Origin: a virus
Virus genome (UHGV): UHGV-0110205
Direction: 5' to 3' (one strand)
Length of the DNA: 10,816 nucleotides
In this document: positions 8,700 through 10,816 of the stretch, one piece after another
Numbering within the stretch: the first letter of the stretch is position 1
Layout: each line of letters starts with the position of its first letter
The notes under the pieces: model-generated
What the model saw: only the letters and a program-made list of their open reading frames with translations
Database searches by the model: none
What the model was told of the DNA's origin: nothing
Made by a program: the position numbers and the translations under genes

Positions 8700-9359
8700 T
8701 TAACTAAATGTCTCTTCAGGCCACTGGCTGGCGATAACTTTCCCTACTACGGAACAGCTATCATTGCATGGAATCATTGGATATTGCGGGTTTAGTGGTT
8801 GTAGAAACACCTGACCGCTATCCCTGATTAGTTTCTTGAAGGTAAACTCATCACCTCCAAGTCTGGCTATGCAGAAATCACCTGGCTCAACAGCCTGCTC
8901 AGGGTCAACCAGAATTAACATTCCGTCAGGAAAGCTTGGCTTGTAGCCTGTTGGTGCGGTCATGGAATTACCTTCAACCTCAAGCCAGAATGCAGAATCA
9001 CTGGCTTTTTTGGTTGTGCTTACCCATTTCTCCGCATCGCCTTTGGTAAAGGTTCTAAGCTCAGGCGAGAACATCCCGGCCTGAACATGAGAAAAAACAG
9101 GGTACTCATATTGTTTTTTAACGGGGGCAGATGAGTATTCGCCAACAGGTGAAAATGTACCGTCGTGGTTGAATGAGACGTTATCAATACCAAGGTATTT
9201 AAACACCACACCAATCTCGTCAAGAGATGGATGACGAGATCCGCGCAACCAGTGACCAATTCCACCCTGCGTCATACCAAGCTCTTCAGCTAACTTCTCT
9301 TGAGTTATGCCGAGCTCTTTCATTCTGGATCTAGCCAGTTCATACCATTTCATTTTCAT
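8700..9359 (-). CDS. cI: Prophage repressor, CI-like (N-terminal HTH plus C-terminal LexA-type S24 autopeptidase domain); not lambda immunity
   Basis: From ATG 9359 ([37 protein letters not shown]...): XRE-type HTH; C-terminal domain with Ala-Gly (HVQAGMF), Ser (EGNSMTAP) and Lys (FTFKKL). Start could be 9353 or 9401. Divergent from cro. Confidence 0.9.
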
Positions 9360-9368
9360 ACCCTTATT

Positions 9369-9442
9369 ATTACGCTCTGTACTAAAACCATCCATGCACA
9401 AGATGTATTTTTTGTTTGCATTCTAAAAGTACATATCGTATT
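9369..9442. promoter_or_regulatory. Candidate OR operator sites (same 15-bp motif class as OL)
   Basis: TTACgctctGTACT (9370-9383), TGCACaagatGTATT (9394-9408), AGTACatatcGTATT (9428-9442); spacings 25 and 34 bp. The last overlaps the PR spacer and -10. Confidence 0.35.
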
Positions 9443-9470: not shown

Positions 9471-9686
9471 ATGAGCAACCTACGAAAATATCGAGAGTCA
9501 CTGAATATCTCTCAAACAACACTTGCTAAGGCAGTTGGATGCACACAGGGAGCTATCGGACATTGGGAATCTGGTCGTCGCTTCCCAGACCTTAAAACAT
9601 GCCGTGCTCTTGTTGAGTGCCTAAACAAGTTAGGCGCAAAAGTCAGTCTTGATGACGTGTTCCCGCCGGAACACAAAGCCGCTTAA
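9471..9686 (+). CDS. cro: Cro-like HTH repressor
   Basis: 71 aa from ATG 9471 (MSNLRKYRESLNISQTTLAKAVGCTQGAIGHWESGRRFP...), XRE-type HTH. GGAGGG 4 nt upstream. The ORF-track N-terminal extension crosses the operator region and is rejected. Confidence 0.85.
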   Translation: MSNLRKYRESLNISQTTLAKAVGCTQGAIGHWESGRRFPDLKTCRALVECLNKLGAKVSLDDVFPPEHKAA

Positions 9687-9694
9687 GACATTCC

Positions 9695-9726
9695 CGCTCT
9701 TACACATCCCAGCCCTGAAAAAGGGC
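9695..9726 (+). promoter_or_regulatory. nutR (boxA CGCTCTTA + boxB GCCCTGAAAAAGGGC)
   Basis: Both elements match lambda nutR as recalled; located just after the cro stop. Confidence 0.75.
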
Positions 9727-9750
9727 ATCAAATTAAACCACACCTATGGT

Positions 9751-9770
9751 GTATGCATTTATTTGCATAC
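9751..9770 (+). promoter_or_regulatory. Lambda-like tR1 / cII leader region with 7-bp inverted repeat (gtatgca-N6-tgcatac)
   Basis: Sequence 9727-9805 appears identical to the lambda nutR-tR1-cII leader as recalled (ATCAAATTAAACCACACCTATGGTGTATGCATTTATTTGCATACATTCAATCAATTGTTATCTAAGGAAATACTTACAT). Confidence 0.35.
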
Positions 9771-9805
9771 ATTCAATCAATTGTTATCTAAGGAAATACT
9801 TACAT

Positions 9806-10084
9806 ATGCAACTTACAAGTACTCGCAAGAAAGCGAATGCAATTACAAGCAACATCCTGAATCGAATTGCTGTACGTGGTCAGCGAAAGGTTGCCGACGC
9901 GTTAGGGATTAATGAATCGCAAATTTCGCGATGGAAAGACAGCTTCATCCCCAAAATGGGAATGCTTCTGGCTGTTCTTGAATGGGGTGTTGAAGACGAG
10001 GAGTTGGCGGAACTGGCTAAGAAAGTAGCCAGAATGCTGACAAAAGAAAAAGCCCCGAAGAACGGCGAATTCTTCGAGGCCTAA
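9806..10084 (+). CDS. cII: CII-like transcriptional activator
   Basis: 92 aa from ATG 9806 with lambda-identical SD AAGGA; C-terminal ISRWKDSFIPKMGMLLAVLEWGVEDEELAELAKKVARMLT parallels lambda CII; N-terminus diverges. Confidence 0.85.
   Translation: MQLTSTRKKANAITSNILNRIAVRGQRKVADALGINESQISRWKDSFIPKMGMLLAVLEWGVEDEELAELAKKVARMLTKEKAPKNGEFFEA
9839..9852 (-). promoter_or_regulatory. TTGC-N6-TTGC direct repeat (candidate CII-binding site / PRE -35 region)
   Basis: Minus strand reads TTGCttgtaaTTGC, inside the 5' end of cII as in lambda PRE. Distance to the lambda-like -10 (AAGTAT near 9790-9800) is longer than in lambda. Confidence 0.25.
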
Positions 10085-10108
10085 TGTAGAAAGACTGGAT
10101 CAATCCAC
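10042..10108 (-). ncRNA. oop: OOP-like antisense RNA (candidate) with pO -10 and intrinsic terminator overlapping the cII 3' end
   Basis: Minus strand has TGtCATAAT extended -10 (revcomp of 10116-10124); 5' region GTGGATTGATCCAGT resembles lambda OOP GTTGATAGATCCAGT as recalled; hairpin cgaagaa/ttcttcg (10056-10076) then cuuuuucuuuug. Confidence 0.45.
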
Positions 10109-10118
10109 AGGAGTAATT

Positions 10119-10286
10119 ATGACAAAACGTCGTAAGAAATACCAGGAAAAAGAAGAGATTCGACACCCTGATTCACCTGAGGGATTAGTGGTAGCCGCAG
10201 CAAATAACAGGGCGTTCGCAGAGCGCCTTGTTGGTGTTTACAGACTAGCCAAAGCAGGAGTGAAACATGGGCGTCGTTAAGTTAGC
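10119..10286 (+). CDS. Candidate 55-aa ORF starting at the lambda-O-like start codon context
   Basis: CAGGAG 5 nt upstream of ATG 10119 (AGGAGTaATTATGACAAA matches the lambda O start context); MTKRRKKYQEKEEIRHPDSPEGLVVAAANNRAFAERLVGVYRLAKAGGETWASLS. Overlaps the rep gene start by 19 nt. Confidence 0.3.
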
Positions 10287-10816
10287 TGATTACAGGCATA
10301 ACCCTGTACAACATCAGGAGGCATCCAGTATGGGGTATGTCTCTATACACCGCCAGTTTATGGACAGCAGGCTCTATAAGGACTCTCAGGCAGTACATCT
10401 TTGGCTTCACTTAATCCTCAAGGCTAATCACGAATCTACTGTCGTCAATACGGATATCGGTCCGATAACTGTTGATCGCGGTCAGATGATAACTGGACGC
10501 CCGTCGCTGGTCAGAGAAACATTCATCCCCGACAACAAAGTTCGGAGCTTATTACGGACTTTTGAGTCGAAAGGGATGCTTAATATTTGCTCGATGGGGA
10601 AGAAATTTAGCCTGTTTACAATCGTTAAATATGACGATTTTCAGGCAAAAAATTGTCCAACGGTTGTCCAACGGTTGTCCAACGCAAACACCAGTAATGG
10701 CGCGGCTCTCAGCGGAGATTGTCCAACGGTTGTCCAACGGTTGTCCATAAACAATAATATAAATAATATCTCTAATACTGACGTATTAGAGAGTGCCACA
10801 GCAGATAAAAAGTCTG
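10268..10816 (+). CDS. O-like replication initiator, N-terminal part (runs off window end); contains ori iterons
   Basis: Open frame from ATG 10268 (AGGAGG 6 nt upstream) to window end, 183 codons, no stop. Alternative start ATG 10331 also has an SD. Missing from ORF track because it has no stop. Confidence 0.8.
10654..10790 (+). repeat. Replication origin: six 11-bp direct iterons (TTGTCCAACGG) in two triplets plus AT-rich region
   Basis: Iterons at 10654, 10665, 10676, 10720, 10731 and 10742 (last degenerate TTGTCCATAAA), separated by a 33-bp spacer, followed by aaacaataatataaataatatctctaatact. Lambda-ori-like architecture inside the initiator gene. Confidence 0.7.

What the first reader, a model, noticed from the sequence alone, without database searches (positions are those of the whole stretch)
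10101..10331. Mosaic junction at the replication gene start: lambda-O start context drives only a 55-aa ORF
The SD and first codons (AGGAGTaATTATGACAAA) look like the lambda O start, but the frame terminates after 55 codons. A different initiator then begins with its own strong SD (10268, alternative 10331) and carries non-lambda iterons. This looks like a recombination scar where a foreign replication module was spliced just inside O; the 55-aa ORF may be a remnant or a new small protein.
Basis: partly seen in the sequence, partly recalled or inferred. Interest (0 to 1): 0.45.

Follow-up and report, generated by a model that had tools for sequence, protein, structure and literature searches.

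The report
Known lambdoid junction with conserved small gene
The lambda-O-like start signal is a known 33-bp sequence shared by lambda-like phages, and the short reading frame behind it is a conserved, selected small gene (HK97 gp53 family, function unknown), not a broken remnant of the lambda replication gene.

Summary

Window 10094-10126 matches lambda 38661-38693 at 30 of 33 bases, through ATGACAAA. Similarity then stops.

The region is about 99.4% identical to Shigella phage Sf6. That record already annotates this stretch as boundary sequence bsq5, the ORF as gene 42 (HK97 gp53 homologue) and the next gene as initiator gene 43. Hayes et al. 2012 describe the same junction across 23 lambdoid phages.

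- The ORF occurs in 97 phage records and 799 of 5426 complete E. coli genomes.
- Copies diverged to 57% identity keep the frame, with median dN/dS 0.14.
- Its stop overlaps the initiator ATG by 14 nt (17 nt in the two Rahnella copies) in all 28 loci measured.

The shared block is probably conserved because it carries the oop RNA 5' end, the pO -10 (CATAAT, reverse complement of ATTATG) and the ribosome site.

HK97 and Stx2 phage 1717 share exactly 10094-10297 at 100% identity, between unrelated flanks.

Possibly new: a covarying mRNA hairpin inside the ORF, and exclusive pairing with replication modules that encode their own helicase.

The parts
10040..10109 (-). Predicted oop-like antisense RNA. 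Its 5' end lies about 10-11 nt upstream of the ORF ATG. A terminator hairpin at 10082-10050 is followed by a U-tract, and the RNA overlaps the 3' end of cII.
   Evidence: The terminator-like site on the minus strand has 14 pairs followed by TTTTCTTTTGT. The position is homologous to lambda oop. The P22 and HK633 records annotate oop, its terminator and its promoter at the same place. Hayes 2012 (PMC3349717) covers this. The transcript itself was not tested here.
10094..10126 (.). Conserved lambdoid boundary sequence (Sf6 'bsq5', 'sequence 5' of Clark 2001). It contains the oop 5' end, the pO -10, the SD AGGAG (10109-10113) and ATGACAAA.
   Evidence: 30/33 identical to lambda 38661-38693. Annotated in Sf6. 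Present in 354 phage records, followed by different genes.
10116..10124 (-). Inferred pO extended -10 element. TGTCATAAT is the reverse complement of ATTATGACA, so the start codon and the second codon (NCA) double as promoter bases.
   Evidence: In lambda the pO- mutation in the -10 lies 2 bp from the O start codon, and pO sits at the 5' end of O (PMC3985674). P22 annotates the oop promoter across the orf48 start. Where the ATG sits directly after ATTATG, the second codon is always NCA (Thr, Pro, Ala or Ser). This is inference, not an assay. The simple promoter scan calls nothing here because the -35 is weak.
10119..10280 (+). Small protein gene, 53 aa (Sf6 gene 42, HK97 gp53 family, phrog_1331). 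Net charge is about +8. The N-terminal 20 residues are predicted disordered, followed by two helices (residues 21-29 and 31-49).
   Evidence: phrog_1331 match over 1-53/53, E 1.4e-37. 97 phage records. 68 protein clusters. dN/dS 0.14. AlphaFold2 mean pLDDT 68. No Pfam, NCBIfam, PADLOC or PDB relatives.
10210..10228 (+). Conserved sense-strand mRNA stem-loop inside the ORF. It has 8 bp and a GCN triloop that is the Ala34 codon. In the window the stem extends to 10207-10231.
   Evidence: It is the only consensus structure RNAalifold finds in 21 diverged copies. 96.4% of cells are paired, against 33-51% when the partner is slid. 0 of 500 shuffles reach the observed covariation. G-C, C-G and U-G swaps involve the synonymous third base of Arg36. 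The U-tract is poor, so it is not a canonical terminator.
10256..10280 (+). Coupling junction. The initiator SD AGGAG (10256-10260) and ATG (10267) lie inside the 3' end of the small ORF, whose stop TAA is at 10278-10280. The overlap is 14 nt.
   Evidence: The same 14-nt overlap (17 nt in the two Rahnella copies) is found in all 28 loci measured.
10267..10816 (+). Replication initiator (Sf6 gene 43 type), which runs off the window end. The first 10 codons (MGVVKLADYR, 10267-10296) belong to the shared cassette. The in-frame ATG at 10330 is Met22.
   Evidence: Sf6 annotation. phrog_345 'replication initiation O-like', E 2e-30. The frame upstream of Met22 is kept across in-frame 6-nt indels in relatives. 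The cassette's right edge is at 10297.
10653..10748 (+). Putative origin iterons: 11-bp TTGTCCAACGG units in two clusters of three.
   Evidence: the repeat finder. Sf6 rep_origin annotation.

Best explanation
The window is the cII-to-replication junction of an Sf6/HK620-type lambdoid phage.

(1) Conserved 33-bp block. Positions 10094-10126 are a multifunctional block shared by hundreds of lambdoid phages. On the bottom strand it carries the 5' end of the oop antisense RNA and the -10 element of its promoter pO (CATAAT, extended by TGn). On the top strand it carries a strong SD and an ATG. Both strands are constrained, so the block stays nearly identical while the sequences on either side are exchanged. 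It therefore marks, and probably promotes, a recombination joint.

(2) What the ATG opens. In lambda this ATG opens O directly. Here it opens a separate 53-aa gene of the HK97 gp53 family, whose protein sequence is under purifying selection.

(3) Link to the initiator. The small gene ends 11 nt after the initiator's ATG (14-nt overlap), and the initiator's SD lies in its last codons. The initiator is therefore most likely translated partly by termination-reinitiation coupling and partly from its own SD.

(4) Cassette. The small gene plus the initiator's first 10 codons (10094-10297) move as one cassette between different cII and initiator types.

(5) Function. The protein's function is unknown. 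Every copy examined sits in front of an O-like initiator followed by a phage-encoded DnaB-like or primase-helicase, and never in front of a lambda-P-type loader. My best guess is that it is a small accessory or regulatory factor of such helicase-carrying replication modules.

Shown here: points 2 and 4, and the anatomy in point 3.
Inferred: pO and oop activity in this phage, translational coupling, and any function.
For: Identity and annotation:
- 99.4% identical to Sf6, with bsq5, gene 42 and gene 43 annotated.

Lambda comparison:
- Only the 33-mer is shared at this junction.

pO and oop:
- The lambda pO -10 lies 2 bp from the O ATG (PMC3985674).
- P22 annotates the oop promoter and terminator at the homologous place.
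- A minus-strand terminator lies at 10082-10050.
- Hayes 2012 aligned this 33-mer in 23 phages, with the ATG serving lambda O, P22 orf48 or HK97 gp53 homologues.

Real gene:
- phrog_1331 full-length match.
- 97 phage records.
- 799 of 5426 E. coli genomes.
- dN/dS 0.14, with mean pairwise difference by codon position of 0.24, 0.14 and 0.50.
- In-frame indels only.

Cassette:
- 100% identity to HK97 and Stx2 phage 1717 over exactly 10094-10297.

Overlap and partners:
- 14-nt overlap in 26 of the 28 loci and 17 nt in the two Rahnella copies.
- The next gene is DnaB-like in 10 of 10 tested by Pfam.
- It is a toprim primase-helicase in the ES18, Oslo and NM-3 types.
- Initiators are either Phage_rep_O or the Sf6 type with no Pfam match.
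Against: - No experiment shows that the 53-aa protein is made, or that the initiator depends on its translation. The initiator has its own good SD.
- The simple sigma-70 scan finds no promoter on the minus strand here, because the -35 TGGTAT is poor. pO activity in this phage rests on homology and on the extended -10.
- The AT-rich SD-to-ATG spacer could look like a -10 for translational reasons alone.
- An identical gp53 protein sits in front of three unrelated initiator and helicase sets. This argues against a specific contact with either protein.
- The link with own-helicase modules comes from 32 loci, many of them closely related.
- The AlphaFold2 model is only moderately confident (pLDDT 68) and has no structural neighbours.
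Confidence: 0.8

Rival explanations
1. Recombination scar: a foreign replication module was spliced just inside lambda O, and the short ORF is a meaningless out-of-frame remnant kept open by chance.
For: The first 8 nt of the ORF equal the start of lambda O, and similarity ends abruptly. The site is an annotated module boundary. The ES18/epsilon34 initiators equal lambda O from residue 17 on, so a joint inside O does exist in some phages (PMC2629481).
Against: The ORF is kept open in copies as low as 57% identical, with dN/dS 0.14 and only in-frame indels. It is a full-length PHROG family member. It has no similarity to O beyond 8 nt and no Phage_rep_O hit.
Confidence: 0.03
2. Leader ORF only: the frame is translated merely to deliver ribosomes to the initiator start or to shield the mRNA, and the peptide itself has no function.
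For: The 14-nt stop/start overlap is conserved, and the initiator SD lies inside the ORF in all 28 loci. The ORF has a strong lambda-O-type RBS. A different, unrelated small ORF (P22 orf48, DUF2740) fills the same slot and also overlaps the gene 18 start.
Against: A pure leader would not keep its amino-acid sequence. Here 22 of 53 positions are invariant or nearly invariant across 33 proteins, and dN/dS is 0.14 outside the overlap and the first three codons.
Confidence: 0.1
3. The conservation is mainly at the RNA or DNA level. The region would be a structured regulatory element (the covarying hairpin at 10210-10228, pO, the oop start), and the ORF would be incidental.
For: There is a covarying sense-strand hairpin. 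The 247-nt mRNA segment folds with z = -4.6. Both ends of the ORF overlap regulatory signals.
Against: The hairpin covers 19 of 162 nt. Third codon positions elsewhere vary freely while the amino acids are kept. RNAalifold finds no other conserved structure.
Confidence: 0.05

Closest known systems
Sf6 gene 42 / HK97 gp53 / ES18 gp58 / epsilon34 gp49 (PHROG 1331, function unknown)
   Same: Identical 53-aa protein in Sf6 and HK97. Same position after cII and oop, and the same 14-nt overlap with the initiator gene.
   Different: Nothing. The window ORF is this gene.
Lambdoid boundary sequence 5 (Clark et al. 2001, HK620; 'bsq5' in Casjens et al. 2004, Sf6; Hayes et al. 2012, Fig. S1)
   Same: The same 33 bp between the cII stop and the next ATG, with unrelated flanks in different phages.
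   Different: 3 mismatches to lambda and 1 to Sf6.
Lambda O start, pO promoter and oop RNA
   Same: Same SD, ATG and first 8 coding bases. Same -10 hexamer on the opposite strand. There is an oop-like terminator over the cII 3' end.
   Different: In lambda the ATG opens O itself, and the -35 of pO lies in O codons 7-9 (TTGAGT). Here the ATG opens gp53 and the -35 position reads TGGTAT. The origin lies about 148 bp further from pO.
P22 orf48 (Pfam DUF2740, PF10872)
   Same: A small ORF (48 aa) in the same slot after the same boundary sequence. It overlaps the start of an O-like initiator (gene 18), which is followed by a DnaB-like helicase (gene 12).
   Different: No detectable homology (hhalign probability 0.05). 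The overlap is 8 nt, not 14. The initiator N-terminus differs (MSNLATVTPIK).
ClpX N-motif-1 degron of lambda O (TNTAKILNFGR) and Dps (STAKLVKSKAT)
   Same: The initiator N-terminus MGVVKLADYR (variants NVAKL, GVARL, SVARI) has the same pattern of small or hydrophobic residues, then a basic residue, then a hydrophobic residue, at the same distance from the Phage_rep_O domain.
   Different: This is a resemblance only. No degradation data exist, and the P22 gp18 N-terminus does not fit.

Membership tests
HK97 gp53 / PHROG 1331 small-protein family | Full-length sequence match to the family profile | tested here: met
   phrog_1331, E 1.4e-37, 1-53 of 53. 100% identical to HK97 gp53 and Sf6 gp42.
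HK97 gp53 / PHROG 1331 small-protein family | Position between the cII/oop region and an O-like initiator, with the stop overlapping the initiator start | tested here: met
   The 14-nt overlap is seen here and in 26 of the 28 loci measured (17 nt in the two Rahnella copies). Annotations agree.
HK97 gp53 / PHROG 1331 small-protein family | Protein-level purifying selection (a real gene) | tested here: met
   Median dN/dS is 0.14 over 192 pairs with dS > 0.2. The third codon position is the most variable.
Lambda O / Phage_rep_O (PF04492): 'remnant of O' reading | Sequence similarity of the ORF to O beyond the start context | tested here: not met
   No Pfam hit for the 53-aa product. The DNA alignment loses similarity after ATGACAAA. 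blastn finds no O similarity.
Lambdoid boundary sequence 5 (bsq5) | A conserved block of about 33 bp at the cII/replication joint, with unrelated flanks in different phages | tested here: met
   30/33 identical to lambda. 354 phage records carry it. HK97 and Stx2 phage 1717 share the sequence starting exactly at 10094, with different cII genes upstream. The Sf6 record labels it.
oop antisense RNA / pO promoter unit | A -10 hexamer on the minus strand overlapping the ATG, and a leftward intrinsic terminator over the cII 3' end | tested here: met
   CATAAT preceded by TGT at 10124-10116. The terminator is at 10082-10050 and is followed by a U-tract. Homologous annotations exist in P22 and HK633.
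oop antisense RNA / pO promoter unit | A leftward transcript is actually made | not testable with these tools
   This needs 5'-end mapping or RNA-seq of an infected or induced culture. Rfam has no oop family, and nothing relevant was found.
P22 orf48 / DUF2740 | Sequence homology | tested here: not met
   hhalign probability 0.05. The window ORF has no Pfam hit, whereas P22 orf48 hits PF10872 at 2e-28.
Intrinsic terminator (for the hairpin at 10210-10228) | A U-rich tract directly after a GC-rich stem | tested here: not met
   There are 1-5 U in the 8 nt after the stem across 21 copies. The terminator scan does not call it.
ClpX N-motif-1 degron (initiator N-terminus) | N-terminal motif resembling TNTAKIL or STAKLV, and ClpXP-dependent turnover | tested here: inconclusive
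   The pattern resemblance holds in most initiator types, compared with published degrons. Degradation cannot be tested here.

The most novel reading that the evidence does not exclude
The gp53 cassette is a post-transcriptional dosage controller for phage initiators. The very basic, disordered N-terminus of the 53-aa protein (MTKRRKKYQEKEE) would bind the covarying stem-loop in its own mRNA (10210-10228). That binding would tune coupled translation of the downstream initiator in replication modules that bring their own helicase. Alternatively, the protein would act on the host DnaB/DnaC machinery, much as the 52-aa ORF104 of Staphylococcus phage 77 blocks the host helicase loader (this analogy is recalled from memory and was not tested).
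Probability: 0.1. Interest if true: 0.55.

Novelty: already known. Interest (0 to 1): 0.15.

Why it matters
The junction itself is textbook lambdoid mosaicism. It shows how a short sequence constrained on both strands (promoter and antisense RNA start on one, ribosome site and start codon on the other) can act as a fixed joint at which immunity and replication modules are swapped.

Two open points remain:
- The function of a 53-aa protein carried by about 15% of complete E. coli genomes, including many Shiga-toxin prophages, which always sits in front of the replication initiator.
- The role of the conserved hairpin inside its mRNA.

Either could affect how these prophages set initiator dosage after induction.

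Tried and rejected
- Remnant of lambda O: rejected. There is no similarity beyond 8 nt and no Phage_rep_O hit.
- Homology to P22 orf48 (DUF2740): rejected.
- Known family or defence/anti-defence role: nothing in Pfam, NCBIfam or PADLOC.
- Remote relatives or a larger protein containing this domain: a profile search of 1.84 billion representatives gave only 24 small proteins of 29-84 aa.
- Solved-structure relatives: none by sequence or by fold (Foldseek against PDB, 0 hits). The model is small and only moderately confident, so this says little.
- Rfam: no family matches the oop-like RNA or the hairpin.
- Hairpin as an intrinsic terminator: rejected, because the U-tract is poor.
- Origin of the ORF by duplication of the initiator 5' end: considered, because CGTCGT(T)AAG occurs near both 10128 and 10272. 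The repeat is absent from diverged copies, so it is probably chance from Arg-Arg codons.
- Literature on gp53 function: a search for 'HK97 gp53' returned only unrelated gp53 proteins.

Full report
WHAT IS THERE

The window end is a lambdoid immunity/replication region:
- cI, 8700-9401 on the minus strand.
- cro, 9471-9686.
- cII, 9806-10084 (Pfam Phage_CII, E 2e-42).
- A 53-codon ORF, 10119-10280.
- An initiator gene starting at ATG 10267, which runs off the window end.

Positions 9700-10816 are 99.4% identical to Shigella phage Sf6 and 99.6% to Escherichia phage Huey. The Sf6 record annotates:
- window 10094-10126 as 'bsq5; boundary sequence';
- the ORF as gene 42 ('Phage HK97 53 protein homolog');
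- the next gene as gene 43, a putative initiator;
- the iteron stretch as the putative origin.

CHECK OF THE OBSERVATION

The lambda 33-mer around the O start (lambda 38661-38693) matches the window once, at 10094-10126, with three mismatches. No match occurred in 200 shuffles. In the pairwise alignment the similarity ends after ATGACAAA.

- The ORF has 53 codons, not 55.
- The initiator ATGs are at 10267 and 10330, not 10268 and 10331.

The iterons are six 11-bp TTGTCCAACGG units in two clusters. They are unlike lambda's 18-bp iterons.

IS THE ORF A SCAR OR A GENE?

It is a gene. The evidence:
- It matches PHROG 1331 (function unknown) end to end (E 1.4e-37).
- tblastn finds it in 97 phage records from Escherichia, Salmonella, Shigella, Cronobacter, Erwinia and Enterobacter phages. 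These include HK97 gp53, ES18 gp58, epsilon34 gp49 and many Stx phages.
- The large protein collection holds 68 clusters, all unnamed.
- One-genome-per-species contigs gave 17 prophage copies down to 57% identity, from Serratia, Rahnella, Brenneria, Chimaeribacter and others.
- All copies keep an open frame of 51-55 codons, and the indels are in frame.
- Nei-Gojobori analysis of 23 copies, leaving out the first three codons and the overlap with the initiator, gives median dN/dS 0.14 over 192 pairs with dS > 0.2.
- Synonymous sites are near saturation against the distant copies.
- Mean pairwise differences by codon position are 0.24, 0.14 and 0.50.

The family is narrow. An exhaustive profile search of 1.84 billion representatives returns only 24 proteins, all 29-84 aa. 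Nothing turns up in Pfam, NCBIfam, PADLOC or PDB.

AlphaFold2 predicts a disordered, highly charged N-terminal 20 residues and two helices (residues 21-29 and 31-49), with mean pLDDT 68. Foldseek finds no neighbour.

MAPPING THE MOSAIC

blastn of the window against individual phages gives sharp edges:
- HK97 and Stx2 phage 1717 share exactly 10094-10297 at 100% identity (204 bp). Their cII genes on the left and their initiators on the right are unrelated to those of the window.
- HK446 shares 9675-10297 (99.4%) and then switches to the HK97-type initiator.
- HK633 aligns from 9675 to the end of the window, with a lambda-type cII.
- Lambda shares the nutR/tR1 stretch (9693-9808, 99%), a piece of cII, and the 33-bp block.

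The mobile unit is therefore bsq5, the small gene, and the first ten codons of the initiator (MGVVKLADYR).

The ES18/epsilon34 initiators equal lambda O from about residue 17 on (94% identity, PMC2629481). They are preceded by gp53 plus MGVVKLADYRPLEPVV. Relative to lambda, the first 16 codons of O are replaced by about 200 bp carrying the small gene and a new N-terminal tail.

The cassette occurs in 799 of 5426 complete E. coli genomes, at 99% identity or more in 796 records.

WHY THE LAMBDA-LIKE START CONTEXT IS CONSERVED

In lambda, pO lies at the 5' end of O. The pO- mutation in its -10 lies 2 bp from the O start codon (PMC3985674). ATTATG on the top strand reads CATAAT on the bottom strand.

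The P22 record annotates the oop promoter across the start of its own small ORF, and the oop terminator over the end of c1. HK633 and HK629 annotate oop at the same place.

In the window:
- The bottom strand reads TGTCATAAT at 10124-10116, which has the form of an extended -10.
- A strong leftward terminator lies at 10082-10050 over the cII 3' end.
- In copies where the ATG sits directly after ATTATG, the second codon is always NCA (Thr, Pro, Ala or Ser), as it is in lambda O and P22 orf48. On the bottom strand this is the TG of an extended -10 with a free middle base.

I infer that the block is conserved because it serves both strands: the oop start and pO -10 on one, and the SD and ATG on the other. 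This is inference. The -35 position is poor (TGGTAT), and the simple promoter scan calls nothing here.

PRIOR DESCRIPTION

Hayes et al. 2012 (PMC3349717) already state three things:
- This 33-nt 'sequence 5' of Clark et al. 2001 is conserved in 23 lambdoid phages.
- Its ATG serves lambda O, P22 orf48 homologues or HK97 gp53 homologues.
[quoted passage not shown]'

A search with the 37-mer finds the block in 354 phage records. It is followed by O directly (lambda, 434, 933W, VT1-Sakai), by gp53, by DUF2740 proteins, or by other genes. P22 orf48 is Pfam DUF2740 and is not homologous to gp53 (hhalign probability 0.05).

HOW IT PROBABLY WORKS

In all 28 loci measured, the small ORF's stop overlaps the initiator's ATG by 14 nt (17 nt in the two Rahnella copies), and an SD-like AGGAG or AGGGG lies in its last codons. 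This is the usual layout for translational coupling, although the initiator could also start independently.

The gene after the initiator varies by phage type:
- It is a DnaB-like helicase in all ten cases tested by Pfam and in mEp213 by annotation. In phi330 a 1377-nt gene of the same length occupies that position but is annotated only as hypothetical.
- It is a toprim primase-helicase in the ES18, Oslo and NM-3 types.
- No copy precedes a lambda-P-type loader.

The initiators belong to at least two classes: Phage_rep_O (HK97, ES18, Erwinia and others), and the Sf6 type with no Pfam match. The same gp53 protein therefore works with unrelated initiator and helicase sets. This argues against a specific contact with their bodies, and leaves either a host target or the shared N-terminal tail.

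That tail (GVVKL, NVAKL, GVARL) resembles the ClpX N-motif-1 degrons of lambda O (TNTAKILNFGR) and Dps (STAKLVKSKAT). It lies just upstream of the Phage_rep_O domain, as in lambda.

Three points favour 10267 over 10330 as the true start:
- the resemblance of the tail to these degrons;
- the in-frame 6-nt indels between 10297 and 10330 in relatives;
- the conserved overlap with the small ORF.

Met22 with its AGGAGG could still give a shorter isoform. That was not tested.

AN UNEXPECTED FEATURE

RNAalifold on 21 diverged copies predicts a single consensus structure: a stem-loop at window 10210-10228, whose triloop is the Ala34 codon.

- Counting pairs for the 8-bp stem gives 96.4% of cells paired, against 33-51% when the partner is slid by 1-3 columns.
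- No shuffle out of 500 reaches the observed covariation.
- The informative pair links the first base of codon 32 (Ala G, Pro C, Ser U) to the synonymous third base of Arg36 (C or U, G, G). There are at least three independent double changes.
- The frequent G-U pairs make the structure specific to the mRNA strand.
- It is not a canonical terminator, because only 1-5 U occur in the 8 nt after the stem.
- It lies 39 nt upstream of the initiator AUG and does not cover the SD.

Its role is unknown.

VERDICT

- The interpretation as a mosaic junction is right and already documented.
- The feature as a whole is already known and annotated, and the protein's function remains open.
- The hairpin and the strict pairing with own-helicase modules are modest additions. 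I did not find them in the papers I searched and read.

Noticed in passing
window 10210-10228 (+): A covarying sense-strand mRNA stem-loop lies inside the small ORF. It has 8 bp and a triloop that is the Ala34 codon. Compensatory swaps involve the synonymous third base of Arg36. It is not terminator-like, and its function is unknown.
   Followed up: yes
window 10267-10296 (+): The initiator's first ten residues, MGVVKLADYR, are shared by otherwise unrelated initiator families. They resemble the ClpX N-motif-1 degron of lambda O (TNTAKILNFGR) and Dps. This suggests ClpXP turnover like that of lambda O.
   Followed up: partly
window 10316-10332 (+): An in-frame internal ATG (Met22) is preceded by AGGAGG. 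It is conserved in most Sf6-type initiators but absent in the Brenneria copy. It could give a shorter isoform lacking the N-terminal tail.
   Followed up: partly
L030 1850-1996 (P22 32349-32495); also the Salmonella phage ST160 record (NC_014900) and Erwinia phage Midgardsormr38: RefSeq labels the P22 orf48 (DUF2740) gene, and a gene at the same boundary sequence in other phages, as 'tail protein'. Its position between c1/oop and replication gene 18 makes that name implausible.
   Followed up: no
L012 (JAEZIN010000021.1, 'Bacillota bacterium' MAG) and L015 (CACSKA010000001.1, 'Chryseobacterium sp.'): Contigs assigned to non-enterobacterial organisms carry this enterobacterial prophage cassette (gp53 is 100% and 83% identical). 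This is probably contamination or mis-binning.
   Followed up: no
window 10128-10136 and 10272-10281: A short direct repeat CGTCGT(T)AAG occurs near the start of the small ORF and again at the initiator start. It is not conserved in diverged copies, so it is probably chance.
   Followed up: partly
window 9693-9808: The nutR/tR1 stretch between cro and cII is 99% identical to lambda (116 bp), although the neighbouring cro and cII genes are of other types. This is another short conserved regulatory block at a module joint.
   Followed up: no
bsq5 matches in 354 phage records: The slot after the boundary sequence is polymorphic. It holds O directly, gp53, DUF2740, a 'ParB-like' gene (Erwinia phage EhrS_59) or a 'DNA-binding protein' (a Klebsiella phage). 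Small ORFs were seen only with modules that encode their own helicase.
   Followed up: partly
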